64,000 nt of DNA from the human T2T-CHM13v2.0 reference genome, Homo sapiens (GCF_009914755.1 NC_060935.1), one strand, 5' to 3'; shown: positions 27,445 to 57,179, counted from the first letter of the stretch. The notes: generated from the sequence alone by a model not told the origin. Numbers and translations are program-made.

Positions 27445-27786
<342 letters not shown>

Positions 27787-30838: not shown

Positions 30839-30933
30839 CAAAGGAGTCCATTCATCCTCTATAACTGCTATACAATATCTCTGTTAAAATGCTGAGAAGA
30901 TTTATCCTAAAAGAAGGCACCAAAGCAATGGGG
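30839..30933 (+). pseudogene. MS4A first coding exon (ATG 30889; MLRRFILKEGTKAMG)
   Basis: ttgttctctatatttctctatag| acceptor, upstream in-frame TAA, AAAATG start, GGG|gtaagg donor; resembles the MS4A pre-TM1 'FLKxExKxLG' motif. Confidence 0.85.
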
Positions 30934-31559
30934 GTAAGGACTAAGTGCTACTTGGGTTAATAAATGACTAGTGTTGCTTCTTCCTAATAGAAAAAGGAAA
31001 AGACATTGACCACATCTTCCCCAAAGGAAGGAGAATTGACAAAAGTGTCCTAAGGTGATGATAACTAGCCTAAAGCTAATTGGACTCAAATGTGACGGAC
31101 CCAAAAAAACATTCCGGAATAGTTCAACGTTACCACAATCCACCCAGGGTTCTAACAAATACATTCTGTGTTTGCTGATATATGAGAGGTCCATTTTCTG
31201 CCTGTGTCTGTAAACAGTTTGAATCAAAGCTCATCAATCATAAAGTGGTCAGGTAATGGGCTTAAAACCAGAAAAGGCTGTAGACCCTGGGGCACTGTAC
31301 TGTCAACATGTGCCCCTTACATTCAGCTCAGGTGGGTCACATTCTGCTTCAATGATCTCCCGCTCAGCTCTCCTCAATCTTAGAATACTATACCCTTTTG
31401 TATTATCCAATATTTGTGGGACCTTGAATCACATTTGCATTTAAGTCAGCAACATTAAACCTTGCACTAGGAAAATTCTCAACGTATCAAATATATTATT
31501 ATCTCCAGCTGGTTGAGACCTACCCAGTACACTATCAGAATGCAGGGCATACCTACATG

Positions 31560-34007
31560 CCTCTGAGTCAACAGGCAAAAATGAGAATTAACGATGTTAG
31601 CTAGGGTGATCAATCCAGGATGCCAAGGGGAAATTGGACCACTACTTCACAATGAATAGAGGCAAAAATGAATATGTCTGGAATACAGGAGATCCTTTAA
31701 GATGTCTCTTAGTACTGTCATGCCCCATGATTAAGGTCAATGGGAAATTACAACAACCCAATCCAGGCAAGCCTATGAATGGCCCAGACTCTTCAGGATT
31801 AAAGGTTTGGGTTATCCTGTCAGGTAAAGAAACATGACCAGCCAAGGTTGCATAATACCCAGGCACAACCCCAAAGTAGACAGCTGTAGCACTGTAGCCC
31901 CTTTCTGAGGCATTCCTGAAGAAAATAATGAAGAAAAATCTTCCCAGTGGACAGAACTTCAAGCAGTACACGAGGTTGTATATTTTGCTTGGAAGGAGAA
32001 ATAGCCGGGTGTGTGACTATATACTAATTCATGGGCTGTGGCCAATGGTGTGGCTGGAATGTCAGGGACTTGAAACGAATATGATTAGAAAAGTGGTGAC
32101 ATAGGAGTCTAGAGAACAGGTTTGTGGATAGACTTCTGAATAGGCAAAACACATAAAGATATTTGTGTCCCATGTTAATGTCCACCAAAGAGCATGATTC
32201 TCCTGCCTCAGCCTCCCAAGTAGCTGGGATTACAGGTGCACACCACTATGCCCAGCTAATTTTTGTATTTTTAGTAGAGATGGGGTTTCACCATGTTGGC
32301 CAGGCTAGTCTTGAACTCCTGACTTCAGGAAATCCACCCGCCTCGGCCTCCCAAAGTGCTGGGATTACAGGCATGAGCCACCATGCCCAGCCAGCAGAGG
32401 AAGATCTTAATAATCAAGTAGATAGGATGGCCCATTCTGTGGATACCACTCAGCCTCTTTCCTCAGCCACCCCATCATTGTCCAATGGGCCCATTAACAA
32501 AGTGGCCATGGTGGCAGTGGCAGGGATGGAGGTTATGCATGAGCTCAGCCACATGGGCTTCCACTCACCAAGGCTGACTTGGCTACAGTCACTGATAGGT
32601 GCCCAAAATGCCAGCAGCAGAGATGAACATTAGGTTCCTGATATGGTACTATTCCCTGGGGTGATTAGCCTGGTGGCAGAATGGCTACATTGGACCATTT
32701 CTGTCATGGAGAGGGCAGTGTTTTCTTCTTACTGGAATAGATACTTATTCTAGATATGGTTTTACCTTCCCTGCATTCAATGCCTCTGCAAAAACTACCA
32801 TCCATGGACTTACAGAATGCCATATCTATTGCCATGGTAATGCCACACAGCATTGTTTTTGATCAGCGAACTCACTTCAGAGCAAATGAAGTGCAACAAT
32901 AAGCTCAAGCTCATGTAATTTGCTGGTCTTACTATGTTCCCCACCATTATGAAGCAGCTGGTTTGACAGGATGATGGAATGAACTTTTGAAGACAATTAC
33001 AGCACCAGCTAGCTGGCAATATCCTGCATAACTGGGGGAAGGTTCACTAGCAGAGTGTTTCTCCCACAGCTAGGATTCACAGGTCCAGAAATCAGGGAGT
33101 GAAAATGGGAGTGACACCACTCACTATTACCCATAGTTACCTACTAGCAAAAATTTGCTTCCTGTCCTGAAACATTATACTGTGCTTGTCAGATGTCTTT
33201 ATTCCAATGGAAGAAATGCTTCTACCAGGAGACATAATAATGATTTCATTGAACTGGAAGTTAGGACTCCCAACTAGCCATTTTGGACTTTTTATCTCTG
33301 AATCAGTTGGCAAAGAAGGGAGTTATTGTGCTGGAAGGGGTTATCGATACTGACTACCATAAGGAAATTTGGCCTATTACTTCACAGTTAAGGAAGTGTA
33401 TATTAGTAATACAGGAAGCCCCCTAGGGTATCCTCAGTATTACCATGTCCTGTGATTAAGGTCAATGGAAAACTACAACAACCCAATTAGAACAGGACTA
33501 CTGATGGCCCAGACTCTTCAGGAGTGATGGTTTGGGTCAACCCACCAAGTCAATAATCACAGCCTGCTGAGGTGCTTGCTGAAAGCAAAGGAAATATGGA
33601 ATGGGTAGTGGGAGAAAATAATCATAAATACCAGCTATAACCATGTGGCCAGTTACAGAAATAAGGACTGTAATTGTCATGAGTATTTTTCCTTATTTTG
33701 TTATGAACATGTTTGTGTGTTTGTGTGTATTACATACCTTTGTTTTCTTCCCTCTCTTATCCCCTTATTATGTAACATAAGATGTGTTGACTTTATGTTA
33801 TGGCTTTTAAGTTGTGGTATTTCAACAGAAGAGTAAACGTCACTCAAGAATTTTGCATCCTCTTCTGGAAAAGTGTTAGTGCATTTTTTGTTGTATGCAT
33901 GACAGCTGTTAGGCAAAAGTACATCTTTCTTTGGAGATTAAGTATGGTTTCACGAGATGTGTAAGTGGACTGCTAAGTGGACTGCTAAGTGGACATGAAG
34001 TTGACTT
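31560..34007 (+). mobile_element. ERVL (HERV-L-like) internal fragments: RNase H, integrase, dUTPase region
   Basis: Degenerate ERVL pol motifs (TCTTCCCAGTGGACAGAACTT; ATTAAGGTCAATGGAAAACTACAACAACCC) ending at an MLT2 LTR. Confidence 0.8.
32194..32393 (-). mobile_element. Alu fragment in ERVL
   Basis: Partial reverse Alu lacking its 3' end. Confidence 0.9.
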
Positions 34008-34938
34008 GTGATGGGTAATTTTATGTGTCAACTTATCTCTGTCAAAATATGCCTAGATAGTTGTTCAAACATTATTCTGGCTGTTCCTGTGAGGGTGTTT
34101 GTGGATGACATTAACATTTAAGTCGCTGGTCTTTGAGTAAAGCAGATTGCCCTTCATAATGTGGGTAGATTTTATTCAATCAGTTGAAGGTCTGAGTGAA
34201 ACAAAAGGCTGACCTTCCCCCCTCCATTTCCCTCATCCCTCCCCTCATGGAGCAAGAGGAATTTTCCAGAAGACTGCCTTCAAGCTTCATCTGCACCATC
34301 AGCTCTTCCGTATCTCCAGCCTGCTGGCCCACACTATAAATTTTGGACTTGCCAGCCAAAATTTACAGAGTACATGTACAGATACAGAGTAAATCAAAAC
34401 GACTGAGGCAAGTCTAAATCATTTTAAGATGTTTGTTTGCCAAGGTTAAGGACATGCCTGAGAAAGAACCCAGAACCACAGGGAAAATTGTGACCCATAC
34501 TTTTTCTGAAGAGGGTCTGGAGACCTCAGTATTCAAAGGCAAAAGCGCAGGTATGAGGAAAGAGGAAGAAATTTTTTAAAGGGTGTGACTAGATAAGAGG
34601 CAAGCAGTTGCATCCTCTTGAGTGTTTCATCAGCCATTCCCTGAATACACAATGTACGCATGACAGGGGGGTACAGGAATAGTTACTTATACATTTGTCT
34701 AGTCCAATAAATCTGCCTTTTCACATAAGATAAAATAAACATAGGGCAGAGGAAGCAATCAGATATGCATTTGTCTCAGGTGAGCAGAGAGATGACTGAG
34801 TTCTGTCCTTCGTCCCACACCTGTGAAGATAAGGTCCTAAGATTTATTTTCCTTTTACTAACATATATATTATACACACATATATGTATATATAAAATAT
34901 ATAGGGTCTGTTTCTCTGGAGAACTCTGAATAATATAC
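34008..34938 (+). mobile_element. MLT2-type 3' LTR interrupted by a second LTR
   Basis: TGTGATGGGTAATTTTATGTGTCAACTT start; TCTGTTTCTCTGGAGAACTCTGAATAATA end. Confidence 0.8.
34389..34858 (-). mobile_element. MER4-group solo LTR
   Basis: Reverse complement starts ...AAAAGGAAAATAAATCTTAGGACC and ends ...AGACTTGCCTCAGTCGTTTTGATTTAC. Confidence 0.65.
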
Positions 34939-35876
34939 TTTTACATAATCTCAATACCAGAACAGAAACCCATATATTCCCTATGAACATGAATTTTAAG
35001 GTAATCTGATTGAAGTAGCTTTAATTCACTTAAAACTACCTAAATAGATCAGAAAGAAAGAATGGGCACCAGGGGATAAAGTAGTTGCAGGGCAGATGAT
35101 GTTGGGTTTTAATCTCCAATACGGCCCCTTCGGTGGTTGCACACATCCTAGTCACTGGTGTGCGCAGGTGGCTCTACTCCGGCTGGAAAATAAAGCCCAG
35201 CTCCAAGCAGGCCCCAGAGAACCACTTCACATAAGAGCTATAGAAAACCAGGAGTCACTAGAGGGCCTGCTTGCCTGCTTTTTTGAACAAGGTCTAGAGC
35301 TGTGATCCAGATTGGTTACAAAGGTCAGCACTGGTTGCAGGAGCAGGCAGAGCAGAGAGAAACTGAGGTCCAAGTCACAAACAAGAGAGGATGAGGGAAG
35401 TAAGGCAAGATCAAAAGTTCCTATTTGGGATTCACAGTGGAGAACAAGAGCTGAGTCTACAGGCTGGAGCTGGCCTCAGAGAACCAACCATGGGACGGAG
35501 ACAAATATCAAGGAGAACCTTAAGGATCCTCAGAGCCAACAGCTCTCCTTTTGTTGTGTGTCCTGGGCCAAACAAATAGGCCTCTGCTTTTTACTTAACT
35601 AGAACCAACTAGAAAAATAAATATTAGTTGTCTCTAAAGGTTGCTATGAAACAAAAGCAAATACTCCCTGTTTAAATACATGAGGAGACCGCACCACCTA
35701 ACTGTGGCTGCCATTTCTCTATTCAGCCTGCTTTCTCTCTGACACACAATTCTTTCACTACTGCTTCAGAAGTACCAGGGTAAAGCAAACATTCTCCTAA
35801 CCTCTCAGTCACCCAGACTGTAATCATCTGTGGTAGATTTGACTTGAGTAATAATGTTGGCTCTCTCTTCTCACAG

Positions 35877-36020
35877 GCTGTGCAAATAATGATTGGCCTG
35901 ATTCACAGTGCACTGGGAACTCTCTGAATTCATTGGATTTTGCTAAGAGAGGATTCAAGTGGTTCTGGTCCTATCCCTATAATTGCTGTAGTAATTTACT
36001 CATTTTTGTCATTATTTTTT
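35877..36020 (+). pseudogene. MS4A TM1-loop-TM2a exon with premature TGA (35925-35927)
   Basis: ctctctcttctcacag|...|gtgagt, 144 nt: AVQIMIGLIHSALGTL*IHWILLREDSSGSGPIPIIAVVIYSFLSLFF; AxQIMIGLIH..LG is the MS4A TM1 hallmark. Confidence 0.93.
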
Positions 36021-37871
36021 GTGAGTAAACCATGGTATTATTGCTTTCAATTCATTTATTTTTTTCTATTGAATTCAGGTGTCTAGAAATGGGCTAAAGA
36101 CCCAATCTCTAACTTAAAGGAGCCCATTTTTGTGTGAATACAGACTTAGAAATGCCTTATGTTTGTTGTATATTTTAATAATTTTCTTGAGAGGTTGAGG
36201 TGCCTATATGGAAAATATATTAAAGGAGGATGCTTGAAGAATAATAAAGAGAGTGGCTATTTGGGTAACTACAAGGCTTATCTTTTGCAGAATGAAAAAT
36301 CCAAAGGCCTTAGCTTAATGTCTGGGGCTACAGAGGCAATTTTTAGAGAGCATGTATACAGAAAAAAAAAAAAAAGGAGACCTAGAGGCACAGGAGGAAT
36401 TTGGGGAAATTAAACAGAGATTTCTAAAGTAGATGTTCTGAATAAGGGTATTATAATAATTCCATGGTAGCAGTTGCCAAAACTCCCACCAAGGGCATGC
36501 CCAATTACAGAAGCAGAAAGTTTACCCAAGGTTAAATTTCTCCATAGAAGAGAGTTTTATTACCTCCTTACCCACAACTTTGTACTTTTCAACCAAAAAC
36601 AGGGCTTCAAGGGAGAGAAGATTTAGTATAACACATTCCCTTTTGCTTTGTGAAAAGGCCTCTGAGACATCCCTGTACAGTCATTTCACCCAGAGAAGGG
36701 CCTGGTGATCTCTGCTCTGGATAAAAGACATTATTTTCTCTAAGGCTTTCTTATAGTGGGAGTCCTCAAGTGGAAGACATTTACAAACACCGAGAACTTT
36801 CTGGAAAGAGTGTATGTAATAAAGACAAATCATTTAAACTGAAATAATACAATTAATCACTTATTGCAAATCATCTAGAAAGAATCCTCAGCCCAAGATA
36901 TGAAAGAGGAGCATATGACAGATATTTAGCCATAGATAATAATTACTCAATTTTATACCTATTATGTATCAGGCATCTCCAAAAGGCACTCCAAGTTCAT
37001 TTTACCTTAATTGCCACGACAACCCCATGAGATAGCTATCATTCATCTCCATTTGACAAACAGGGAAACTGAGGCTTGGAGAACTTAAGTGACTCTCACA
37101 GAGTGACACAGCAATGAAGTGTCAGAGGTAAAAACAAACAAACACAAGCTAAGATGATTCTGCCTTCATGACAGGATTTCATTTTCCTGGGCTGAAGGAT
37201 CCCCAGTCCCCTTCTTAGTATGTTTGAATCATCTTTTGTTATTGCCGCAGGCAGATTGAAGACAGGTATATGATTTACTGGAAAAAAATTAATTCTTGGT
37301 ATTCCAGAAACAACAATCCTTTCAATTAGTGCCAGAAGGTGATGATAGCACTTAGGGTATGATATTTGTGGAAGGCAACCTATAAATCTTCAGATGTAAT
37401 GTTTTCTGAAACTATTCCCACTGATGAAATTTTTTTTATAACATTATGGGAGAAACGTAGTTCTTGCAAGTGAGAGCCACCACACTAGCCACTAGGAAAT
37501 ATTTTCTAATAATTCATTTCAAGGGATCAATAAATGACAATTAAAACAAGTGAAGTGCCTACAACTTGTCCTCATAAAATCATTGTGAGCTCCCTAAGTC
37601 CCATCACCTATGCAAAGGTCTCATTAATGACCGGAGACTTTAAAACATTTTTCATCCCTATAACAGAGAAATAGTGAATCCATGCTTTAGAAATTGTACT
37701 AGCGGTCACTACAGACTTCGAATGGGGTTTTTCATGTTAAAATCACTTTCTTCAGAAATGCATTCAGTGCCACTTTGGATATTAGGAATGCCACTGGCTC
37801 TAGGGAAAGAAGCTATTGAGGGGATTATCATAAGGCATTGTGTGTTTATAAATGCTTATTTCTATCCCCAG

Positions 37872-37925
37872 TTCATCAACTCAGGATCCAGTAGTGTAAT
37901 ACAGAAGCCTGTTACGAGATATAAG
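37872..37925 (+). pseudogene. MS4A short TM2b/intracellular-loop exon
   Basis: tttctatccccag|...|gtatgt, 54 nt: FINSGSSSVIQKPVTRYK (MS4A FIxSGS motif). Confidence 0.92.
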
Positions 37926-38224
37926 GTATGTCAGAATATTCGGAGCAACTCTAAAGATTAAAATGTTACTTGGTGCAAACAAACAAAAAAAGAAATTATT
38001 GCTGGGCCAACATTTTTGGGGAAAAAAAACTTTTCCAAATGTTTAAATGAAAAAAAATTATTTAATTTTTGTAAAGATATCCTCCAGTGCATCCTCTGTG
38101 CATGAATGTTGGAGGAGGATACAGTGTGAGCAATAATATTGTATACAGAGACAGACGTGAGAGTTTCCATGAAATAAATCATTTCAAGCTATCTCAACGA
38201 GCATATATAACCAAATAAAACTTA

Positions 38225-38501
38225 AGACAAGGCCTTACTCTGTCACCCAGGCTGGTGTGCAGTGGGTGATCACAGCTCAATGCAACCTGGAGCTCCTGGG
38301 CTCAAGTGATCCTCCAGCCTCTGCCTCCCAAATAGCTGGGACTGCAGGTGTGTGCCACCACACCTGGTTTTTTCATTTTTTGCAGAGATAAGGGTCTTGC
38401 TATGTTTCCCAGGCTGGTTTTGGACTCCTGGCCTCAAGGCATACTCCTGCCTTGGTCTCCGAAAGTGCAGGGATTATAGACATGAGCCACTAAACCTAGC
38501 C
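38225..38501 (-). mobile_element. AluJ-type
   Basis: Diverged reverse Alu. Confidence 0.9.
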
Positions 38502-38759
38502 ACCAAACAAAACTTCGACCCTGAGAATCAAAGCATTGGGAAGCGAAGAAATGTAATTAGGATAAGATTAGAAAATTAGTGTCTAGTTAAGGAGAATGGA
38601 TAAGACAAAATAATGTGTGAAAAGAGAATTGCCTTCAGCAAAACCAGGTCAGGAAATATCAATTAGAACACAAACCAGATATCATGACAACACATCTAAC
38701 GAAGGATGGTCCTTTTTCTTTTAGAACTTCCCTCCTGTCTCTCACAGCCCCCCTTGTGA

Positions 38760-38960
38760 TTAGGATCACAGCTCTGGAGGCAGATAGCCTGAATTTTCCA
38801 ATTCTGACTGCCTTACTAGTGCCTGTGTAACCCTGAGCAAATTACTTTACTCTGTGCCTCACTCTCCTCATTTAAAAAATAAAATGTGGTTAATAATAGT
38901 AACTGCCTCAAAGGGTTGCTGTGAGGATTAAATTAGTATGTAAGCATAAAGAACAGTACC
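38760..38960 (+). mobile_element. MIR fragment
   Basis: MIR core-like CTGTGTAACCCTGAGCAAATTACTT...GTTGCTGTGAGGATTAAAT; strand by eye. Confidence 0.7.
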
Positions 38961-38963
38961 TGG

Positions 38964-39393
<430 letters not shown>

Positions 39394-40035
39394 TCAGATA
39401 AAGGGGTCCTCCTATTTTTTCTTTCAGTAGAATAGGGTCAGAGTGGTATGAGAGGCCATTTTTCTCAGCCCCAGATTGGAAGCTATAATTATGGGCATTA
39501 AGCTATTACACTTTTTTTAACTTCTATTCCCAAGGTAGCCACTGTTAATATCATTTTTCATTCTAGGCCTTTTTCTAAGCTTTTTTTTTTTTTTTTTTTT
39601 TGTAATTTGTTTGCAAGCAGAGTGAACATGTGACTTAGAAGTCACCTGGTGTTGCTTTTCCACGGAAAACCTTACATCCACAGAGATATAAGTACAGATG
39701 ACATGAAAGCCCATAAAGCCCCCATGTGATTTGGTAAACTCCCAGAACTAGCATTCTCATAGTTTAGTTTCTGTATTGGTGCATACTGTCCCAAATTTTC
39801 TCCACAACACCCAAAGAAACAGTTGTGAATAAACTCAGCCCCTTGACTGATTTTCACAAAAACTCACAAAAAGTTTTGGGTTTTTTTACTCGAGGATTGG
39901 TGGGGGAAGATTATGATTGTAATTTCCAAGTTCCAGTCACAACCTAGATCCCTTTGTAACTCTCTCCCTAATCCCCATCACTCCGTCTTCTGCCCTTCTT
40001 TTTCCATCTCCCCACTCCACCTCAATCAATCAATC

Positions 40036-40046
40036 TATACATATAC

Positions 40047-40091
<45 letters not shown>

Positions 40092-40099
40092 TATATATA
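40036..40099. repeat. Compound (TA)/(TG)n microsatellite
   Basis: Directly visible. Confidence 0.9.
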
Positions 40100-40584
40100 A
40101 TTTGCTGCATGTCAGGCATGTTCTATGTATGTAGGATGCATCAGTGAACAAACAGATGAAAATTTATTACCCTTAGGGAGCTTACATTCTAATAGCAGGA
40201 TAAAAGCAATAACAATAAACAGGACAAACAGGGAAATAATATAATATGTTAGAAGGTGATAGGTGTGATGAAAAAAAGAAAACGTAATAAGGGCTGCCAT
40301 AGTTTCGTCTTGAACATTTGGACGGATTCAGTTGAGAATCTTAGACATGAAGATATTTAAAGCCAGGAGACTTGTTGAGATCTCCAGTGGAAAGAACACA
40401 ACAAAGACGAAAAGAGAAACAAGAACTGAGCCCTAGGGCACTCCAACATGAAAAATAGAAAAAAGGGGAGAAAATAATAATTTTTTTACTTGAAAAGTTT
40501 CTTGGTTTAATCATGTTCTAAAGAGTAAAATATTATATCTTATTCGTGTGCATGTTTTCAAGTTAAAGCAGAAAATAAATGTAG

Positions 40585-40945
<361 letters not shown>

Positions 40946-41444
40946 TAATTTTTAAATTGTTTTTTCAAACAATATACATTAAGTGACTTCCTTTTGGGGT
41001 GCAGATATTTGAGTTCAGGAACTTTTTTCTGAAAACATATATATTTATTTTCATGTAAACCTGGGAAAATCTTTAGCTGTCTATGTAAGTATTATCTTAA
41101 TTGATTCTTTTCTTAAGCATACAACTCAATAGTTTTTAGTATATTCACTGATATGTGCAATTATTAACACAGTCCATTCAAAAACATTTTCATCACCTCA
41201 AAAAGCAACTCTGTACCCCTTGGCTATCACTCCCATCCCCAACTTCCCATTCTCCCCAACCTTAGGCAGCCACTAATCTACATAGGGTCTCCATATATTT
41301 TCCTACTCCAGACATTTCATTAAAAATGAATCACATCATATGTAATTTCTTGTTAACTGGCTTATTTCACTCAATATATTGTGGTAAAAGTTCACTCATG
41401 TTGTAGCATATATCAGTACTTTATTCTTTTTATGACTAAACATT

Positions 41445-42753
41445 TCTATACACCATAACATTCAAGCTGAGAGTCAAATCAAGAATGCAATTGCATTTAC
41501 AATAGCCACAAAAGTAATAAAATACCTAGAAATACATCTAACCAAGGAGGTGAAAGATCTCTACAAGGAAAACTAGTTAATACAAAATATTGCTTAAAGA
41601 AATCATATATGACACAAACAAATGGAAAAACATTTTATACTCATGGATTAGAAGAATCAAAATCATTAAAATGGCCATACTGCGCAAAGCAAGCTACAGA
41701 TTCAATGCTATTTCTATCAAACCACCAATTATCATTTTTAGCACAATTAGAAAAAGTATTTCTAAAATTCATATGGAATCAAAAAAGAACCCAAATAGCA
41801 AAAGCAATCTTAATCAAAAGGAATAAAGCCAGAAGCATCCACATTACCTGACTTCAAAGTATACTACAAGGGTATAGTAACTAACCAGTACCATGCTGGT
41901 ACTGGTGCAAAAACAGGCACATAGATCAGTGGAACCAAATAGAGAATTTGGAAATACATCTGCACACCCAAAACCAACTTATATTCAACAAAGTCAACAA
42001 AAATAAGCAATTGGGTAAGGATTCCCCATTCAGTAATGGTGCTGGGATAAGTGGCCATCCATATACAGAATAATAAAACCGAACCCTCAAAAGCAATTGC
42101 AACAAAAACAAAAATTGACAAATGGGACCTAATTAAACTAAAGACTTTCTGCACAGCAAAAAAAAGAAACTATTAAACTAAACAGACAACCTGCAGAATG
42201 GGAGAAAATATTTGCAAACTATACGTCCTACAAAGGACAAATACTCAGAATCTATAAGTAACTTAAACAATTCAACAAGCAAAAAACAAATAACCAAATT
42301 AAAAAGTGGGCAAATGACATGAACAGTCACTTCTTAAAAAGAAGACATACAAGCAGCCAACAAACATGAAAAATGCTTAATATCACTAATTGTCAGGAAA
42401 ATGTAAACCAAAACCAAATGAGATAACATCTCATACCAGTCAGAATGGCTATTACTAAAAAGTCAAAAAATAGATATTGGTGAGAATGCGGACAAAAGGA
42501 ACACTTATACACTGCTGGTGGAAAAGTAAATTAGCTCAGTCCCTATGGAAAGCATCTGGAAATTTCTAAAGAACTAAAAATAAAACTACCACTTGACCCA
42601 GCAATCCCATTACTGCATATACACCCAAAGGAAAATAAATCATTTTACCAAAAAGACATGCATTTACATGTTCATCACAGCACTATTCACAATAGCAAAG
42701 ACATGGGATAAATCCAGGTGCCCATCAATGGTGAATTGGGTAAAGAAAATGTG

Positions 42754-42826
<73 letters not shown>

Positions 42827-43185
42827 TACCATGGAATACTACACAGCCATAAAAAAGAGTGAAATCATGTCCTTTGCAGCAATATGGATGCAGCTGGAGG
42901 CCATTGTCCTAGGTGAATTAATGCAGAAACAGAAAACCAAATGCCAGTGGGGTTATAATAAGTGGGAGCAAAACGTTGGGTACATATGCACATAAAGATA
43001 AGAAAATAGACATTGATGAATGCTACTGGGGGAAGGCAGGAGGGAAGAAAGTTTTAAAAACTACCTCTTGGGTACTAACTGGGTGATGGGATCAATCATA
43101 CCCCAAACCTCAGCATTATAAAATACACCCAAATAACAAAACTGTACATATGCCCCCTGAATCTAAAATGAAAGTTGAATTTTTT
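41445..43185 (+). mobile_element. L1PA (old) 3' portion inserted in an older minus-strand L1
   Basis: ORF2 remnants 41590-41851, L1 3' UTR. Confidence 0.85.
42754..42823. repeat. (TA)n microsatellite
   Basis: About 70 bp TA run inside the L1 3' region. Confidence 0.95.
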
Positions 43186-43929
43186 TTAAAGAACGTGAAT
43201 AGATATTGTTTTATTTCTATAGTTTATTCAGAAATAAATCTGCACACCCACAACCAACTGGTATTCAACAAAGTCAACAAAAATAAGCAATGGGGTAAGG
43301 AGTCCCTATTCAATAATGGTGCTGGGATCATTGGCCATCCATACACAGAATAATAAAACTGGACCCTCTGAATGCCTTTTGGGTTTTCTTTACTGCCGAA
43401 CTGCCCTGGTTAGAATTTCTAATACAAGGTTGAATAGATATAATGAGAGTATATCTCACCGTCTTATTCCTCATGAAAGCATTGAGTCTTTCACCAATAG
43501 GTGTGTTAGGTGTGGATTTTTATTAGATGCTCCTTATCAGGTTGAGAAAGATCCCATCTATTTTGAGTATTTTGAGTGTTTTTATCATAAAACAGTGAAG
43601 AATTTTCACCAAATGCTTTGTCTACATCAATTGAGATGATCATATGTGTGTTTTTCTATTTTACTGATATGGCATATGACATTAATTGTATAAGATAAAA
43701 CCAGCCTTGCATTTGTGGAATAAATCACACTTGCTTACAGTGTACAAGCATACCTCGTTTTATTGTGCTTTGCTATATTGCACCTCACAGATAATGAGGT
43801 TTTTTACAAAGTGAAGGTTTATAATAACACTGCATCAAGCAAAGCTGTTTCTTCAACATCACGTGCTCACTTCATGTCTCCGTGTCACCTTTTAGTAATT
43901 CTCACAATATTTCAAACTTTTTTATGATT

Positions 43930-44451: not shown

Positions 44452-46260
44452 ATAACCATACAATGGCCTCTAAATTTTAAGTGAAAAGAAGAGCCACACA
44501 TCTCTCTCTTAAGTCAAAAGTTATAAATGATTAAGCTTATGAGGAAGGCATATAGAAAGGTGAGATAGGCCAAAGTTAATCCTCTTGCACCCAACCATTA
44601 ACATAGGTGTGAATGTAAAGGAAAAATTCTTGAAGGAAATTAAAAGTGCTGCTTGAGTTAACACACAAGTGATAAGAAAACAAAACAAGCTTGTTGCTGA
44701 TGTGGAGAAAGTTTTAGTTGTCTGGACAGATCAAACCAACTACAGCATTTCCTTAAGCCAAAGCCTAATCCCTAGCAAGGCCCTAATTGGCTCTTTTCAA
44801 TTCTGTGAAGACCGAGAGAGATGAAGAAGCTTCAGAAGAAGAGTTTGAAGCTAGCAAGGTTGATTCATGAGGTTTAAGGAAAGAAGTTGTCTCCATAACA
44901 TAAAAATACAAGGTGAAACAGCAAGTGATAATGTAGGAGCTGCAGCAAGTTATCCAGAAGATCTAGCTAAAATAATTGATGAAGGTGGCTGTATTAAACA
45001 ACAGATTTTCAATGTAGATAAAACAGCCTTATATTGGAAGAAGACGTCTTATAGGACTTTCCCAGCTAGAGACAATGCTTGGGCTCAGAGCTTCAAAGGA
45101 CAGGCTGACTCTCTTGTTAGAGGCTAATGCAGCTGATGACTGTAAGTTGAAGCTAATGCTCATTTACTATACTGAAAATTCTAGGGCCCTTAAGAATTAA
45201 TCTACTCTGCTTATGGTCTGTAAATGGCATAAGAAAGCATGGATAACAGCACATCTGTTTACAGCATGATTTACAGAATATTTTAAATTCAATATTAAGA
45301 ACTACTACTCAGGAAAAAAAGCTTCCTTTTAAAATATTACTGCTCATTGACAGTGCACCTGGTCACATGTGTTTTCATGTCTGTTAACATAACATCCAAT
45401 TTGCAGTGATGAATCAAGGAGTAATTTGTACTTTCAAGTCTTGTTATTTAAGAAATACATTTTGTAAGACTACAGCTGTCATAGCTAGTGATTCCTCTGA
45501 TAGATCTCGGCAAAGTAAATTGAAGAGCTTCTGGAAGATTCACCATTCTAGATGACATTAAGAGCATTAATGACATACAGGAGGAGGTCAAGATAGCAAC
45601 ATTAGCAGGACTTTGGAAAAAGTTGATACTACCTCTCATGAATAACTTTGAGGGGTTCAAGACCTCGGCGGAGGAAATCACTGCAGATGGGATGGAAATA
45701 GCAAGAAGGGAAGCCTGAAGATGTGACTGAATTGCTGTAATCTCCTGATAAAACTTTAATGGATAAGGAGTTGCTTCTTATGGATGAGTAAAGAAAGTGC
45801 TTTCTTCAGGTGGATTCTACTCCAGTGAAGATGCTATGAACATTGCTGAAATGACAATGAAGAATTCAGAATATTACATAAGCTTAGTTGATAAAGCACT
45901 GTCAAGGTTGGAGAGGATTGACTCCAATTTTGGAAGAAGTTGTATGGTGGATAAAATGCTATCAAAAAACATTGCATACAACAGAGGAAACTTTTGGGAA
46001 AAGAAGAGTTGATGGGTGCAGCAAACTTCATGTTATCTAATCTTAAGAAATTGCCACAGGGACCCCAACCTTCAGTAAACACCACCCTAATCAGTCAGCA
46101 GCCAACAACATCAAGGCAAGACCCTCCACCAGCAAAAACATTACAGCTCACTGAGGCTTAGGTGATCATTAGCTTTTTTTAGCAATAAAATATTCTTAAA
46201 TTAAGTACATTTTTAGACATAAAGCTATTGCACACTTGCACACTTAATAGACGACAATAA

Positions 46261-46574
<314 letters not shown>

Positions 46575-46689
46575 AGCATAACTTTTATATGCATTGGGAA
46601 ACTAAAAAATTCATCTGTTACGTTATTAAAGTATTCATTTTATTGCAGTGGCCTGAATCTGAACCTGCAATATCTCCAAAGTATGCCTG

Positions 46690-51600
<4,911 letters not shown>

Positions 51601-52284
51601 AAAAATAATAATGCTGTACACTTAATTCTATAAATAATTTATTAGAATTTTTAGGAACATAGATACCTTCTTAAGTGATCCTGGTTCATAAGCCTCTCTA
51701 TCCTCATTAATGGACATAGGATAAGTGTGCAGAGGCATTCTAAGCATACCACAATCTGACTTTGTACTAAGGATGAATCTTTTTAGTTGACAACTCCAGC
51801 AGCATAGTTCTACATATTCACAAAGCTAAAATTGAAAATCCTAATCACAATATACTAGATTATTCCTCCTTTAGTATGCCATGTATTAAATGTATTATTT
51901 ATACATGACTAATACATATATGTATTAATACATGACATGTATTAAATGTATTAAATGTATTAAATTTTATTAAATGAAATTGTGCTTGTAATTATATCTC
52001 CCCCATTAGATTAAAAGCTCCTTGAGTAGAAACCTGAGGTTTAGTACATTGTAGGCATTGTATAATTAATGAATAAATAAATATTCCCTCTGAAAAAAAA
52101 ATTATCCTACTAGCTTCTAGACAAATTTGAGGTGGACTCCTGATATCAACCTCTGTGACAATCAAAGAAAGTCAGATTTTTAAAACTTTAACTTGAATGT
52201 TCTAGCCAGTAGGACAGACTGATTGCTTCAGCAACATCTGTTTATGCTGTCCATAACCAATTTTTCTTTGTATGTCTATTACAC

Positions 52285-52404
52285 CTTACTTTAGCAATTG
52301 TAATGAACAGCATAACTATTTGTGTGACTACACTTGGTATAATTCTATTAAGCATGGAGATTGCAACTTTTGCATTAAATGCAACCACATACAATTGGTC
52401 AAAC
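52285..52404 (+). pseudogene. MS4A TM3/extracellular loop 2 exon with mutated acceptor (AC instead of AG)
   Basis: tttttctttgtatgtctattacAC|...|gtaagt, 120 nt open: LTLAIVMNSITICVTTLGIILLSMEIATFALNATTYNWSN. Confidence 0.92.
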
Positions 52405-52619
52405 GTAAGTACCAATTTTAATAATAATTAGATCAAAATTTTAATATAAATGAAAAATTATGGTGAATGATGTATGTTGAAGTGAGTAAGGCATAGAAAA
52501 GGCCACCAAATGTGTCAATTATCTTTGGCATAGAAATGTAAAGATAAACTGTATTTTCTCTATATTCTTGCTATAAGCACATTGAAAAATAAGTTTTTCT
52601 CAAAAATCGTGATGCACTA

Positions 52620-53500
52620 TAAACCTCAAAGAGAGATTAAAATTATCGTTAAGATAAAATGATAGAATACTTAGAAACCCCAAAGACCTACCTGAAAAAC
52701 AACTGCAGAAGTCAAACAGTTTAGAGAGGTGGCTGGACAAAAGAAAAACCTGCAAAAATTAATAGATTGTCTTTACACTAGAAATAACCACTTAAATATT
52801 GAAATTTTTAAAAAAATCAAAATAACAGCAAAACTATAAATGTTTAATAAGAAGCATTTTAAAAGGACTGAATACTTTGAAAAATTATGTTCTTGAATGC
52901 GAATTTACAAAATCATAAAATTGCAAGTTTCTGCAAATTAACACATAATTGTGATGCAATTCCATTTAGAATCTCAACAGCATTTCGGAAGTCATGCAAT
53001 AAAATTACTCTAAAATGCATATAGATAGATGAATAATTGCATAAAAATGCCAAGAAAGTCTAGAAGTTACATAGTGATTGAGGAGGATCAGATAATTTGC
53101 TGCACTAGATATTAAAACTTGTTATTAGGCTATTATAATAAAAATAGTACAGTATTTACACACTAAAAGGAAAATTTAACTAAGCACAGAATAGAGAGTT
53201 GAAAAATAAATCTAAGTATAAGTGAACACATATTATTTTGTAGGTGATAACATGACCAGTCAATAGAGAAAAGATGAAATTGGAAAAAAACAGTATTAAA
53301 TCAATAAGCTATTGATTTCCAAGAAAATAATAATGGACACCTACTTTGTACCACAAATAAAAATAAATCACAGATGAAGTATGTGTACATAAAAACCATT
53401 AAAATTAGCATAAAATATAGAACTAATATATTATTTACATAAGCAACAGAGAAAACCAAGAAGGAGGAAAGATAGAAAGACATTTTATGTCACAAATATT
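52620..53500 (+). mobile_element. Very old L1 (L1ME-like) ORF2 fragment
   Basis: A-rich degenerate L1 ORF2 motifs. Confidence 0.55.
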
Positions 53501-53539
53501 TGCACTTTTTATACAATACAGGCTGAGACAACAATAGCC

Positions 53540-56500
53540 TAAAGAGTTAAAATACTGCCCCAGTGGGCTGAGGGAGTGGGGTCCCCACCCCAGGGTGACA
53601 AAGAATAGGGCTGTCCCCTAGCTGACTCAGAAGACAGAACCACAGAGGATTATCCTCAGGCCTCAAAAATCTAACAAAATTTTCTCTATTGGGTTTTGGA
53701 CTTGCTTAGGTCTGCTGCCCACTTCTTTCTTTCTTATTTTCTCTATTGGAAATCGAAATGACTATCCTCTGCCAGTCCCACCATTGTATTTTAGAAGTAG
53801 ATTACTAGTTTTCTGGCTTCACAAGTCCACAGATAGTGAGGAATTTTTGCCCCAAGATGAATCATGCTATAAGTGATGATTTCTAGCATGAATCTAGATG
53901 CTATAACTGATTTAGATGATGAGATTTGAGGATTTTTGATTTTATAATATTTAGGAAAAGTTTGGACATAGAGTTGATTCTAGAGTGGGTTACAACTTTC
54001 GGAGATGTTGAAATTAGCTGAATATATTTTGCACATGGGAAGGACATGAATTGAGGGGAACTAGAGGCAGACTGTTATGGGTTGAATTGTGATACCGAAA
54101 CATATATGTTGCAGTCCTAACCCATGGCACCTCAGAATGTGACATTTTGGGGGAATGGGATTATTCCAGGTATAATAAGCTAAATTAAGATGAGGTCATA
54201 CAGGGGTAGGTAGGTCATTAATCCAGTATGATTGGTATTCTTATAAGAGAGAAATTTGGACATAGGTACATAAGGAAGATGGCACTGTGTATTAGTTCAT
54301 TTTTACACTGCTATAAAGAACTGACTGAGACAGAGTAATTTATAAAGGAAAGAGGTTTAATTGACTCACAGTTTTGCATGGCTCGGGAGGTCTCACAAAA
54401 CTTATAGTCATGACAGAAGGCAAAGGAGAAGCAAGTACCTTCTTCACAAGGAGGCAGGAGAGAGAGCAAAAGGGGAACAGCTACAGACTTTTAAACCACC
54501 ATATCTCATGAGAACTCACTCACTACCATGAAACAGCATGGGGGAGCCACTCCCATGATCCAATTACCTCCCACCAGGTCCCTCCCTCAACACGTGGGGA
54601 TTACAATTCGAGATGAGATTTGGGTGGGGACACAGAGCCAAACCATATTATTCCATCCCTGGCCCCTCCCAAACTTCATCTCCTGCTCACATTTCAAAAC
54701 ACAATCATGCCCTCCCAGCAGTCCTCCAAAGTCTTAACTCATTCCAGCATTAATTCAAAAGTCTAAGTTCAAAGTCTCACCTGAGACAAGGAAATTTCCT
54801 TCCACTGAGCCTGTAAAATCAAAAACAAGTTAGTTACTTCCAAGGTACAATGGGGGTACAAGCATTAGGTAAATGTTCCCATTCCAAATGGGACAAATTG
54901 GCCAAAACAAAGGGGCCACAGGTCCCATGCAAGTCTGAAACCCAGTAGGGCTGTTATTAAATTCTAAAGCTTCAAAATGATCTCCTTTGGCTCCATGTCT
55001 CACATCTGGGGTACACAGATGCAAGAGGTGGGCTCCCAAGGCCTTGGGCAGCTCCACCCCTGTGGCTCTGCAGGGTAAAGCCTCTGCAGCTGTTTTCATA
55101 GGCTGATGCTGAGTGCCTGCAGCTTTTCCAGGTGCGTTGTAGAGGCTGTCAGTGGATTTACCATTCTTGGGTCTGGAGAATGGTGGCCCTCTTCTCACGG
55201 GTCTAGTGGGCAGTGCCCCAGTGGGGACTCTGTGGGGGCCTCAACCCCACATTTCCCCTCTGCAGTGCCCTAGTAGAAGTTCTCCATGAGGGCTCCAACC
55301 CTGTCACAGCCTTCTTCCTGGACATCCAGGCATTTTCATACATCCTCTGAAATCTAGGTGGAGCCCACCAAGCCTCAACTCCTGACCTCGGTGCACCCAC
55401 AGGCCCAACACCATGTGAAAGCCACCAAGGCTTGGGGCTTGCTCCCTCTGAAGCAACAGCCCAAGCTGTACCTTGGCCCCTTTTAGCCACAGCTGGAGCT
55501 GGTGTGGCTGGGAAGCAGGGCCCCAAGTCCCGAGACTGCACAGAGCAGCAGCAGGGGCCCTGGACCTGGGCCACAAAACCATTTTTTCCTCCTAGGCCTC
55601 CAGGCCTGTGATGGGAGGGGCTACAGTGAAGATGTTTGACATGCCCTGGAGACATTTTCCCCATTGTCTTGGCTATTAATATTTGGTTCCTTGTTACTTA
55701 TGCAAATTTCTGCAGCTGGCTTGAATTTATCCCCAGAAAATGAGTTTTTCTTTTATACCATGTATCAGGCTGCAAATTTTCCAAATTTCTATGCTTTGCT
55801 TCCCTTTTAAACACAACTTCCAGTTTCAGATAATCTCTTTGCTCACACATATGTGAACACACCTCTAGAAAAAAACAGGTCACCTCTTAAACACTTTGCT
55901 GCTTAGAAATTTCTTCCACCAGATACCCTAAATCATCTCTCTCAAGTTCAAAGTTCCACAAATCTCTAGGGCAGGGCAAAATGCCACCAGTCTCTCTGCT
56001 AAAGCATAGCAAGACTGACCTTTGCTCCAGTTCCCAAAAAGTTCCTCATCTCCATCTGAAACCACCTCAGCCTGGACTTCATTGTCCATATCACTATCAG
56101 CATTTCAGTCAAAAGCATTCAACGAGTCTCTAGGAAGTTCCTAACTTTCCCACATCTTCCTGTCTTCTTTTAAGCCCTTCAAACTCTTCCAACTTCTGCC
56201 TATTTCCCAGTTCCAAAGTTGCTTCCACATTTTCAGGCTATCTTTATACCAGTACCCCACTCCTGGTACCAATTTCCTGTGTTAGTCCATTTTCACACTG
56301 CTATAAAGAGCTGCCTGAGACTGGGTAATTTATAAAGTAAAGAGGGTTAATTGGCTCACAGTTTCACATGGCTGGGGAAGCCTCAGGAAATGTACAATCA
56401 TGGCGGAAGGCAAAGGAGAAACAAGTACCTTCTTCAAAAGGAAGCAGGAGAGAGAGAGTAAAGGGGGAACTTCCACAGACTTTTCAACCATCAAGTCTCA

Positions 56501-56884
56501 TGAGAACTCACTCACTATCATGAGAACAGCATGGGTGAAACTGCCCCCATGATCTAATCACCTCCCACCAGATCCCCCCTCAACACATGGGGATTACAGT
56601 TTGAAATGAGATTTAAGTGGGGACACAGAGATGAACCATATCACCATCTGAACATAGAGGCAGAGATAGGAGTTATACTATTACAAGTCAAAAACACCTG
56701 GGGCTACCAGAACCTGGATGAGACAAGGGAGGATTCTCTCCTATATGCCTTAGAAAGAGCATGATCCTGCCAATACATTTATTTTGAACTTTTGGCATCC
56801 AGACCCATAAAACAATAAACTTCTGTTGTGTTAAGCCACCCAGTTTGTGGTACTTTATTATATTGCCCTAGGAAATGAATACAT
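53540..56884 (+). mobile_element. MLT1 (MaLR) internal fragment plus LTR (from about 54073), split by a THE1 element
   Basis: TGTTATGGGTTGAATTGTG LTR start; AAGCCACCCAGTTTGTGGTACTTT...AATACA end. Confidence 0.75.
54288..56643 (-). mobile_element. Full-length THE1-type MaLR: LTR 54288-54650, internal, LTR 56278-56643
   Basis: Two direct about 365-bp LTRs (TGT(A/G)TTAGT...AACCATAT(T/C)A) flanking about 1.6 kb of THE1-internal sequence. Confidence 0.92.
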
Positions 56885-57058
56885 GAGGACAATATGTAAG
56901 TACTCAATAAATTTAAAACATACTTAGTTGTTATGAAAATACCCAAAAATAATCATAATTGTGTGAGACTGCTAGGATGAATATTTACTCCTGATTTTCT
57001 AAATGTTGATCTTATATAATTTTAAATGGTTAATTAATATGAAGATTTTTTTATTCAG

Positions 57059-57179
57059 ATGGTTGGTATGATGCTTTTACAATATTTACTACTCTGCACC
57101 ATCTTAGAGATGACCATTGTAATCATAATCATCCAGTGGGTTGTAAGAGCATTTCATCATGAAAAACACACTGAAGAAA
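57059..57179 (+). pseudogene. MS4A TM4 exon
   Basis: ttttttattcag|...|gtgagt, 121 nt: MVGMMLLQYLLLCTILEMTIVIIIIQWVVRAFHHEKHTEE+1 nt; LL...ILE TM4 motif. Confidence 0.92.

What the first reader, a model, noticed from the sequence alone, without database searches (positions are those of the whole stretch)
30839..57179. A complete hidden MS4A (CD20-like) four-TM gene spread over 26 kb of repeats
Seen in sequence: five exons bounded by splice signals in non-repeat islands splice in frame to MLRRFILKEGTKAMG|AVQIMIGLIHSALGTL*IHWILLREDSSGSGPIPIIAVVIYSFLSLFF|FINSGSSSVIQKPVTRYK|LTLAIVMNSITICVTTLGIILLSMEIATFALNATTYNWSN|MVGMMLLQYLLLCTILEMTIVIIIIQWVVRAFHHEKHTEE (15+48+18+40+40 = 161 codons, all internal junctions phase 0). 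Established: KxxG|AxQIMIGL, FIxSG, MN...GIIL...E and LL...LE are the MS4A motifs, and the exon breaks fall where MS4A genes have them. The ORF track misses four of the five exons. Inference: this unit is probably the one catalogued only as lncRNA LINC00301/C11orf64, and may be the disabled orthologue of a gene still coding in other mammals (mouse Ms4a20 is my syntenic candidate, from memory).
Basis: partly seen in the sequence, partly recalled or inferred. Interest (0 to 1): 0.92.

Follow-up and report, generated by a model that had tools for sequence, protein, structure and literature searches.

The report
Dead MS4A gene inside lncRNA LINC00301
The human lncRNA locus LINC00301 holds the almost intact remains of a four-helix CD20-like (MS4A) membrane-protein gene that still looks intact in predicted proteins of orangutan, marmoset, lemurs, rodents, carnivores and camel, but in this human genome carries a stop codon and a ruined splice site.

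Summary
The unit is a unitary, unprocessed MS4A pseudogene.

**Evidence for the gene**
- A predicted 185-aa orangutan protein (P0001, "MS4A8-like") has the same exon joins. It is identical at 177 of 185 positions.
- P0001 passes the Pfam CD20 cut-off, 31.0 against 27.9 bits.
- P0001 folds into four helices. Its nine best solved-structure matches are Fc-epsilon-RI complex chains B and CD20.

**Corrections to the finding**
- The gene is not complete within the stated span. A sixth coding exon (64070-64143, just outside the window) supplies the last 24 residues. It is the last exon of LINC00301.
- Exon 4 has AC where two paralogous exons keep the acceptor AG.
- The in-frame TGA replaces a Trp that the orthologues keep.

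**Context**
- P0001 finds no other human copy.
- Related proteins form one clade across boreoeutherian mammals.
- LINC00301 also splices in exons of a second, more decayed MS4A relic upstream.
- The mouse Ms4a20 identity could not be tested.

**Rating:** a new member of a known kind, of moderate interest.

The parts
30889..30933 (+). Coding exon 1 (15 codons, N-terminal cytoplasmic end; ATG at 30889, donor GTAAGG). It lies inside LINC00301 exon 30839-30933.
   Evidence: Matches residues 1-15 of the orangutan protein P0001 except L2P.
35877..36020 (+). Coding exon 2 (48 codons, TM1+TM2). Acceptor cag, donor GTGAGT. The RefSeq LINC00301 transcript does not use it.
   Evidence: Its best non-self hit is the TM1/2 exon of MS4A19P (E 0.0022). 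It starts at A-V-Q directly after AG, like five paralogues that start at A-[IV]-Q.
35925..35927 (+). In-frame TGA at codon 32, the first disabling lesion. Orthologues and MS4A19P have Trp here.
37872..37925 (+). Coding exon 3 (18 codons, TM2-TM3 loop, 'FINSGSSS'). It equals a LINC00301 exon.
   Evidence: hub annotation. Identical to P0001 residues 64-81.
52283..52284 (+). Dead splice acceptor of exon 4, the second disabling lesion. It reads AC where the paralogous exons of MS4A19P and of the upstream relic have AG in the same context: tctctattgcAG / tatctattccAG / tgtctattacAC.
52285..52404 (+). Coding exon 4 (40 codons, TM3 and a short outer loop). Donor GTAAGT. LINC00301 does not use it.
   Evidence: 98% identical to P0001 over all 40 residues.
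57059..57179 (+). Coding exon 5 (121 nt, TM4). Acceptor cag, donor GTGAGT, ends in phase 1. LINC00301 does not use it. The sixth and last coding exon cannot be listed as a part, because it lies 70-143 bases beyond the window's end. It runs from 64070 to 64143 in window numbering (24 codons plus TAA). It then continues as 3' UTR to the LINC00301 end at 64309, with AATAAA at 64284.
   Evidence: The best non-self hit of exon 5 is the TM4 exon of MS4A19P (E 0.0006). Exon 6. It matches P0001 residues 162-185 with one difference.
5436..5555 (+). TM3-type exon (40 codons, intact AG/GT) of a second, upstream MS4A relic ('unit X'). It equals a LINC00301 exon.
26317..26459 (+). LINC00301 exon. An unnamed unit-X-type predicted protein (P0064) reads it as a C-terminal coding exon (90% identical).
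23937..24496 (+). GC-rich (about 66% G+C) segment, 92.5% identical to the stretch around the LINC00301 start (-7664..-7108). It may be an old 5' exon or promoter of the candidate unit.

Best explanation
This is a unitary, unprocessed pseudogene of an unnamed MS4A (CD20-like) subfamily.

The ancestral gene had six coding exons over about 33 kb. It encoded a 185-residue protein with four membrane helices and short cytoplasmic ends.

In this human genome two point changes disable it:
- TGG to TGA at codon 32, in the exon for helices 1-2.
- AG to AC at the acceptor of the exon for helix 3.

Nothing else is broken. There is no frameshift, and 177 of 185 codons still match orangutan, so the loss looks recent (inference).

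The locus is still transcribed, as LINC00301. That transcript starts upstream, at a second and more decayed MS4A relic ('unit X'). It uses exons 1, 3 and 6 of the dead gene and skips exons 2, 4 and 5, which carry all four membrane helices.

Shown: the exons, the two lesions, the orthologues, the family, the fold, and the absence of a second human copy.

Inferred: the direction of the two changes (from paralogues and orthologues), the recency of the loss, and a testis-biased ancestral expression.
For: 1. Exons and peptide are as stated. Seven of eight splice sites are canonical.

2. [quoted passage not shown] It is collinear with the six-exon human CDS, 177 of 185 identical, with W at the human stop.

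3. Family: P0001 scores 31.0 bits against PF04103, cut-off 27.9, E 3e-7. Of 36 relatives scanned out of the 114 proteins held, 36 have CD20 as best family and 29 are over the cut-off.

4. Fold: AlphaFold2 of P0001 with 22 aligned relatives gives pLDDT 80.8 and four helices. The nine best Foldseek PDB rows are chain B of four Fc-epsilon-RI complexes and five CD20 entries, E 1.3e-3 to 4.2e-2. Hydropathy of the human translation shows four hydrophobic stretches.

5. Paralogy: the best non-self hit of exons 2, 4 and 5, among 9,617 ORF pieces of 258 kb plus 8 loci, is in each case the collinear exon of the annotated neighbour MS4A19P. E values are 0.0022, 0.0034 and 0.0006.

6. Acceptor lesion: the same 12-base context ends in AG in two paralogous exons and in AC here.

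7. Unitary: P0001 searched against the whole human assembly hits only this locus, plus a weak match to MS4A19P and two chance-level rows.

8. Orthologues form one clade (support 100/100) that follows the species tree. The human end branch is 0.026 and the orangutan's 0.012.

9. At five of the eight human-orangutan differences (positions 2, 32, 61, 150, 164), P0001, P0002 and P0003 agree against human.

10. LINC00301 exon use comes from the hub table. Its 7 exons and 864 nt are stated in passages of PMC7466809. The five exons I can place sum to 652 nt.
Against: - The human exons scanned one by one gave no Pfam CD20 hit at E <= 10.
- PF04103 searched over the whole human assembly gave 37 exon matches, none in the window. 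None fell in MS4A13 or MS4A19P either.
- The spliced human peptide itself could not be given to Pfam. Membership rests on the 96%-identical orthologue.
- Exon 2 alone found nothing in the PDB. A two-sequence profile found only CD20 chains, but at E 0.2-0.39. No Foldseek row reached E <= 0.001.
- Only one human haplotype was seen, so the lesions could be polymorphic.
- No chimpanzee, gorilla, gibbon or macaque sequence was available, so 'recent' is an inference.
- The orthologues are computer-predicted proteins. None is shown to be expressed.
Confidence: 0.9

Rival explanations
1. The human gene is still alive in some people or by some route. Either the TGA and the AC acceptor are variants of this haplotype only, or the stop is read through and a non-canonical acceptor is used, so that a full 185-residue MS4A protein is made.
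For: Apart from the two lesions the frame is perfect: 558 nt, no frameshift, 177 of 185 identical to orangutan. The other seven splice sites are canonical. Only one haplotype was examined.
Against: There are two independent lesions in one haplotype. The curated RefSeq transcript skips exons 2, 4 and 5, and the locus is named as non-coding (hub table; passages of PMC7466809). The cluster at 90% identity that holds P0001 has a single member, and no human, chimpanzee or gorilla protein was returned. Five derived amino-acid changes lie on the human side.
Confidence: 0.05
2. What matters now is the RNA or a small peptide. The relics have been taken over as a working lncRNA (as claimed for lung cancer), or as a source of a short protein such as the 95-residue frame that starts at unit X's ATG and runs through the TM3-type exon 5436-5555. 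The MS4A ancestry would then be only history. This is compatible with the pseudogene reading and adds a present-day function.
For: [quoted passage not shown] A review calls it one of nine testis-specific lncRNAs in a sperm-retrieval panel (passages of PMC10116801). A 95-aa open frame exists in the inferred splice form. Unnamed predicted proteins join unit X exons to exons 5-6 of this gene (P0007) or to the 26317 exon (P0064).
Against: No test of RNA function or translation could be made here. The 95-aa frame ends in 39 residues read from the 26317 exon in a frame different from the one P0064 uses. The position of LINC00301's second exon is inferred, not seen.
Confidence: 0.2
3. The five pieces are chance open frames with hydrophobic composition in a repeat-rich intergenic stretch, not a gene relic.
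For: Per-exon Pfam scans and single-exon searches were empty.
Against: A 185-aa orthologue is collinear over six exons. There are 103 relatives at E <= 0.001 in the representative library. The clade has 100/100 support. The fold matches MS4A structures.
Confidence: 0.01

Closest known systems
MS4A19P (annotated human pseudogene immediately upstream, window -44749..-14481)
   Same: Same strand and same cluster. Its TM1/2 (48 codons), TM3 (40 codons) and TM4 (121 nt, phase 1) exons have the same lengths and phases. They are the best non-self hits of this unit's exons. It is also disabled.
   Different: It is a distinct, old paralogue: 23-30% amino-acid identity per exon. In the tree the rows that match it best are not joined with this unit's clade; they lie unresolved at the base beside the unit-X clade. 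MS4A19P is annotated as a pseudogene. This unit is annotated only as a lncRNA.
MS4A1 (CD20) and MS4A2 (Fc-epsilon-RI beta chain), the solved members of the family
   Same: The TM1 opening motif is shared: CD20 chain residues 'AVQIMNGLFHIALGGLLM' align to this exon. The exon break before A-V-Q and the start of the TM3 exon four residues before 'MNS' are the same. The four-helix fold matches: TM-score 0.65-0.76 (normalised by the target) to chain B of Fc-epsilon-RI complexes and 0.44-0.50 to CD20. That chain B is the beta subunit, MS4A2, is recalled and not stated in the output.
   Different: Only 16-24% identity in the structural alignments. The outer loop between helices 3 and 4 is much shorter than CD20's. 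The tails are short and show no recognisable signalling motif. In the candidate the 'YP(F/L)WG' motif of helix 2 reads 'YSFLS'.
MS4A8 (the name the source gives the orangutan orthologue: 'MS4A8-like')
   Same: It is the neighbouring gene downstream. The TM1 motif AIQIIIGLAHIGLGSI is 56% identical over 16 residues.
   Different: Not an orthologue. Proteins that match MS4A8/15/18 best form the outgroup clade (100/98), and this unit's clade sits on a long stem of 0.94. 'MS4A8-like' is an automatic name.
Transcribed unitary pseudogenes catalogued as lncRNAs (the class surveyed in PMC2864566, seen only as a search listing)
   Same: A formerly coding, intron-bearing locus with no live copy in the genome, intact orthologues elsewhere, and continued transcription.
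   Different: Here the transcript fuses exons of two adjacent relics and skips every exon that carries a membrane helix of the downstream one.

Membership tests
MS4A / CD20-like family (Pfam PF04103) | Match to the PF04103 profile above the curated cut-off (27.9 bits) | tested here: met
   Met through the orthologue. P0001, 96% identical to the human translation, scores 31.0 bits, E 3e-7. Of 36 relatives, 29 are over the cut-off and 36 have CD20 as best family. The human exons scanned singly gave no hit. The spliced human peptide could not be submitted.
MS4A / CD20-like family (Pfam PF04103) | Four membrane-spanning helices with both ends on the same side | tested here: met
   Four hydrophobic stretches in the human translation: peak windows 19-37, 47-65, 84-111 (two overlapping) and 132-150. 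Four helices in the P0001 model: 9-38, 47-71, 79-113, 119-161. Sidedness was not tested.
MS4A / CD20-like family (Pfam PF04103) | Fold like solved MS4A proteins | tested here: met
   The nine best Foldseek PDB rows are Fc-epsilon-RI complex chain B (4 entries) and CD20 (5 entries), probability 0.99-1.00. E values are only 1.3e-3 to 4.2e-2.
MS4A / CD20-like family (Pfam PF04103) | Place in the 11q12 MS4A cluster and the family's exon plan (TM1+2 exon opening at A-[IV]-Q just after the acceptor) | tested here: met
   The window lies between MS4A13/MS4A19P and MS4A8 (hub table). PF04103 exon hits flank it on chr11 from 60.01 to 60.74 Mb. Seven of 8 compared TM1/2 exons have AG directly before the start and 6 of 8 open with A-[IV]-Q. 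The eighth row, MS4A10, was placed at the Pfam hit, not at the exon start.
Unitary (unprocessed) pseudogene | Disabling lesions relative to intact orthologues | tested here: met
   TGA at codon 32, where P0001, P0002, P0003, P0004, P0005 and P0006 have W. The exon-4 acceptor is AC where two paralogous exons have AG.
Unitary (unprocessed) pseudogene | No intact copy elsewhere in the same genome; introns retained | tested here: met
   P0001 against the whole assembly: five exon hits, all in this locus, one weak hit to MS4A19P, and two chance-level rows on chr1 and chr9 full of stops. Six exons are spread over 33 kb.
Unitary (unprocessed) pseudogene | Lesions fixed in the species; orthologues at the syntenic place | not testable with these tools
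   Only one human haplotype is held. No mammalian genome other than this one could be read.
   No named mouse protein was returned. Murid (Mastomys coucha, P0017) and gerbil (P0016) members of the clade exist. 'Ms4a20' occurs in one paper, seen only in a search listing; 'Ms4a19' occurs in none.

The most novel reading that the evidence does not exclude
The loss is recent and specific to humans or African apes, and possibly still polymorphic. Under this reading a testis-expressed MS4A membrane protein that is kept from lemurs to orangutan and across rodents, carnivores and camels was lost on our lineage. The surviving read-through transcript LINC00301, already used as a sperm-retrieval marker and studied in lung cancer, would then be either its RNA remnant or a source of a two-helix MS4A-derived micro-protein.
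Probability: 0.15. Interest if true: 0.6.

Novelty: new member of a known kind. Interest (0 to 1): 0.42.

Why it matters
**LINC00301 in the literature.** LINC00301 is named in 118 papers of the searchable library. It appears as an oncogenic lncRNA in lung cancer and as a testis-specific marker for sperm retrieval. Only two of those papers also hold 'MS4A'. I saw both only in the search listing, where the term counts were 1-2. I found no paper that says the locus is a dead MS4A gene.

**What the ancestry explains.**
- The exon structure of LINC00301.
- Its testis bias. Neighbouring MS4A18 is testis-limited according to passages of PMC2826416.
- Why 'conserved exons' of this lncRNA need not mean RNA function.

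**Additions to the MS4A family.** The finding adds one, and probably two, unnamed old subfamilies to the mammalian MS4A family: this unit and 'unit X'. It also gives a dated gene loss to test on the human lineage.

**Limits.** Lost genes that are still transcribed and catalogued as lncRNAs are a familiar class. The orthologues already sit in public databases as uncharacterised predicted proteins.

Tried and rejected
- **Pfam, exon by exon.** Scans of exons 2-5 gave no CD20 hit. The longer open frames around exon 4 and around the 5436 exon also gave none. Only the MS4A19P TM1/2 exon gave a weak CD20 hit (16.7 bits, E 0.0078).
- **PDB.** phmmer with exon 2 found nothing.
- **PF04103 over the whole assembly.** It gave 37 exon hits, none in the window.
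- **Single exons against the whole assembly.** Only self hits, plus one weak hit at the 3' end of MS4A19P.
- **jackhmmer seeded with the MS4A1 TM3 exon.** It recovered no other paralogue, not even the live neighbours. Single-exon searches therefore have little power in this family, and their silence means little.
- **DNA-level blastn between the three units.** No exon-to-exon homology at E < 1e-3, except exon 1 against its copy at -1889..-1720, and two 3' stretches.
- **The missing unit X exons.** Searches for TM1/2, loop and TM4 exons of unit X in -14400..30800 found nothing convincing. The whole assembly also lacks them.
- **Selenocysteine reading of the TGA.** Considered and dropped, because orthologues have Trp there. 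No SECIS search was run.
- **The rest of the MS4A cluster.** MS4A13 and the genes upstream of it are therefore absent from the paralogue comparisons.


Full report
**1. The observation**

A stop-to-stop frame listing and direct reading show all five pieces at the stated places. Joined by coordinate they give 483 nt.

| Exon | Window coordinates | Splice context |
|---|---|---|
| 1 | 30889 (ATG)-30933 | donor GTAAGG |
| 2 | 35877-36020 | acceptor cag, donor GTGAGT |
| 3 | 37872-37925 | acceptor cag, donor GTATGT |
| 4 | 52285-52404 | donor GTAAGT |
| 5 | 57059-57179 | acceptor cag, donor GTGAGT |

Exons 1 and 3 coincide with the LINC00301 exons 30839-30933 and 37872-37925 of the hub table.

Two details differ from the finding:
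- The dinucleotide before exon 4 is AC, not AG. The nearest AGs are out of frame.
- Exon 5 ends one base into a codon, so a further exon is required.

**2. First tests were negative**

- Scanned singly against Pfam, exons 2-5 gave no CD20 hit at E <= 10.
- Exon 2 found nothing among PDB sequences.
- PF04103 run over the whole human assembly gave 37 exon-sized matches, many in chr11 60.01-60.74 Mb. None fell in the window. None fell in MS4A13 or MS4A19P either.
- The exon peptides found only themselves in the assembly, except for a weak exon-5 hit at the 3' end of MS4A19P.

**3. Paralogy inside the cluster**

I fetched chr11:60,500,001-60,574,000 and 60,638,001-60,758,000. I cut the 258 kb into 9,617 open-frame pieces.

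With phmmer, the best non-self hit of exons 2, 4 and 5 is in each case the collinear exon of the annotated neighbour MS4A19P (coordinates):

| Candidate exon | MS4A19P exon (window) | E-value |
|---|---|---|
| 2 (TM1/2) | -44748 | 0.0022 |
| 4 (TM3) | -16981..-16862 | 0.0034 |
| 5 (TM4) | -14520 | 0.0006 |

The exon lengths and phases are the same in both units: 48 codons, 40 codons, and 121 nt ending in phase 1.

Links to the wider family:
- The MS4A19P TM1/2 exon has a sub-threshold CD20 hit (16.7 bits, E 0.0078).
- A profile of the two TM1/2 exons finds only CD20 chains in the PDB, 4 of 4 rows, but at E 0.2-0.39.
- jackhmmer reaches the MS4A1 TM1 exon in round 2.
- The TM1/2 exon opens directly after an AG in 7 of 8 cluster genes compared, and with A-[IV]-Q in 6 of 8.
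- A jackhmmer run seeded with the MS4A1 TM3 exon recovered no paralogue at all. Single-exon silence in this family therefore means little.

**4. The decisive result**

Exon 4 alone (40 aa), searched among longer proteins, returned one hit. [quoted passage not shown]

Those residues are encoded at window 64070-64143, after a 'ctcag' acceptor. AATAAA lies at 64284, and the annotated LINC00301 end is at 64309.

The six-exon human CDS is 558 nt. It has no frameshift and is identical to P0001 at 177 of 185 positions. The eight differences, written human residue / position / orangutan residue, are L2P, stop32W, L61S, M105T, M126L, L133F, V150T and L164S.

P0001 scores 31.0 bits on PF04103, against a cut-off of 27.9. 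The family assignment therefore rests on an orthologue 96% identical to the human translation, not on the human peptide itself.

**5. The lesions**

- *The stop.* Codon 32 is TGA. P0001, P0002, P0003, P0004, P0005 and P0006 have W there, and so does MS4A19P.
- *The acceptor.* The context of the TM3 exon is conserved among the three paralogous exons. MS4A19P reads tctctattgcAG, the exon at 5436 reads tatctattccAG, and the candidate reads tgtctattacAC. The direction of change is inferred from these comparisons.
- *Side of the changes.* At five of the eight human-orangutan differences (positions 2, 32, 61, 150, 164), P0001, P0002 and P0003 agree against human. The human end branch in the tree is twice the orangutan's, 0.026 against 0.012. 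This is weak support for relaxed constraint on the human side.
- *No other copy.* P0001 against the whole assembly hits exons 2, 5, 4, 3 and 6 of this locus, then MS4A19P weakly, then two rows on other chromosomes full of stops. There is no other human copy.

**6. Orthologues and family tree**

Word-index searches with P0001 and with a five-sequence profile returned named predicted proteins from these species:
- Callithrix jacchus (185 aa, 84% identity)
- Microcebus murinus
- Lemur catta
- Ochotona princeps
- Camelus ferus
- Mustela erminea
- Odobenus rosmarus
- Nyctereutes procyonoides
- Zalophus californianus
- Meriones unguiculatus
- Mastomys coucha
- Octodon degus

No human, chimpanzee, gorilla, macaque or mouse protein was returned.

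The exhaustive profile search of 1.84 billion representatives found 103 proteins at E <= 0.001 and 15 at E <= 1e-30.

I assigned all 114 held proteins to the human locus each matches best within the 258 kb:

| Best-matching human locus | Proteins |
|---|---|
| This unit | 41 |
| An upstream relic ('unit X') | 7 |
| MS4A19P | 33 |
| MS4A8/15/18 | 25 |
| None | 8 |

Of 36 proteins that I picked from the first three groups and scanned, 36 have CD20 as best Pfam family and 29 pass the cut-off.

The careful tree has 47 rows: 44 of the 114 proteins, chosen by length and score, plus three human translations.
- Two long-branched rows of a first tree, P0074 and P0075, were left out.
- In that first tree the human C-terminus was in the wrong frame.
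- The 23 rows of this unit form one clade with 100/100 support on a stem of 0.94.
- That clade splits into a camel-plus-carnivore group (99/94) and a primate-pika-rodent group (99/93).
- Human sits next to P0001 (99/91).
- Unit X rows form a clade at 98/93. The MS4A19P rows are unresolved at the base.

**7. Fold**

AlphaFold2 of P0001 with 22 aligned clade members gives pLDDT 80.8, pTM 0.72 and four helices.

In Foldseek against the PDB, the nine best rows are chain B of four Fc-epsilon-RI complexes and five CD20 entries. The Fc-epsilon-RI rows have target-normalised TM-scores of 0.65-0.76 and rmsd of 2.5-4.0 Å. No row reaches E <= 0.001; the best is 1.3e-3.

Hydropathy of the human translation shows four hydrophobic stretches.

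**8. What LINC00301 is**

The tblastn of the spliced peptide also lit up window 5430-5558, which is the LINC00301 exon 5436-5555. It is an intact 40-codon TM3-type exon with AG and GT.

A copy of exon 1 lies at -1844..-1797. It is 68% identical at the DNA level over 171 bases, with an ATG and a GT donor.

Proteins of other mammals show that this 'unit X' type is a full four-helix MS4A gene elsewhere (P0043, P0053, P0054). The human assembly lacks its TM1/2 and loop exons.

Two unnamed predicted proteins splice across the units:
- P0007 joins unit X exon 1 and TM3 to exons 5-6 of the candidate.
- P0064 ends in the exon that in human is LINC00301 exon 26317-26459.

LINC00301 (NR_026946) has 7 exons and 864 nt according to passages of PMC7466809. 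The five exons I can place sum to 652 nt. That leaves 212 nt for the first exon at -7164 and, by inference, the unit X exon 1.

LINC00301 is therefore a read-through of two MS4A relics. It uses exons 1, 3 and 6 of the candidate and skips exons 2, 4 and 5.

**9. Literature**

| Search term(s) | Papers holding them |
|---|---|
| 'LINC00301' | 118 |
| 'LINC00301' and 'MS4A' | 2 (seen only in the listing; term counts 1-2) |
| 'C11orf64' | 1 |
| 'Ms4a20' | 1 (listing only) |
| 'MS4A19' | 0 |

- Passages of the 2010 phylogeny of the family (PMC2826416) list 16 human genes and do not use the word pseudogene.
- Passages of a review (PMC10116801) call LINC00301 one of nine testis-specific lncRNAs.
- I found no statement in these searches that the locus is a dead MS4A gene.
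- Subscription journals and database records (HGNC, Ensembl, UniProt) were not searchable here.

**10. Verdict**

It needs three corrections: a sixth exon outside the span, a dead acceptor, and a second relic in the same transcript.

It is a new member of a known kind: a unitary pseudogene of a known family, disguised as a lncRNA.

These points remain open:
- The mouse Ms4a20 link.
- The date and fixation of the loss.
- Any present function of the RNA.

Noticed in passing
window -1844..-1797 (outside, left of the window), 5436-5555 and 26317-26459: A second MS4A relic ('unit X') lies between MS4A19P and the candidate. It has an exon-1 copy with ATG and GT donor, an intact TM3-type exon and a 3' exon, all apparently used by LINC00301. 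Its TM1/2, loop and TM4 exons are absent from the human assembly, while other mammals have full-length predicted proteins of this type (P0043, P0053, P0054).
   Followed up: partly
window 23937-24496 versus -7664..-7108: A 560-bp GC-rich segment (about 66% G+C, 25-27 CpG per 400 bases) is present twice at 92.5% identity. One copy lies around the LINC00301 start and one lies 6.4 kb upstream of the candidate's exon 1. This identity is far higher than between the coding exons of the two units (47-68%), which suggests gene conversion or a later duplication. Predicted proteins of other species translate it as an N-terminal extension.
   Followed up: partly
window -14520..-14400 (MS4A19P TM4 exon, outside the window): The MS4A19P TM4 exon has an in-frame TAA four codons before a conserved GTGAGT donor in the same phase as the candidate's exon 5. 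A stretch paralogous to the candidate's last exon lies at about -11719..-11530, next to the annotated start of the antisense lncRNA LOC105369321 (-11668).
   Followed up: no
window 57703-57818 and 58276-58390: A local direct duplication of about 115 bp at 83% identity lies just downstream of exon 5. Separately, 58183-58269 resembles 26618-26703 (71%), which ties the 3' flanks of the two units together.
   Followed up: no
inferred LINC00301 splice form (unit X ATG, 5436 exon, 26317 exon): A 95-residue open frame starts at unit X's ATG, contains one TM3-type helix, and ends inside the 26317 exon. From memory only, a short 'putative uncharacterized protein' was once catalogued for C11orf64. Whether it is this frame was not checked.
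   Followed up: partly
window -54447..-54409 (outside the window, between MS4A13 and MS4A19P): A weak TM4-like match (13 residues, 69% identical to exon 5; jackhmmer E 0.12) could be a further MS4A exon relic or chance.
   Followed up: no
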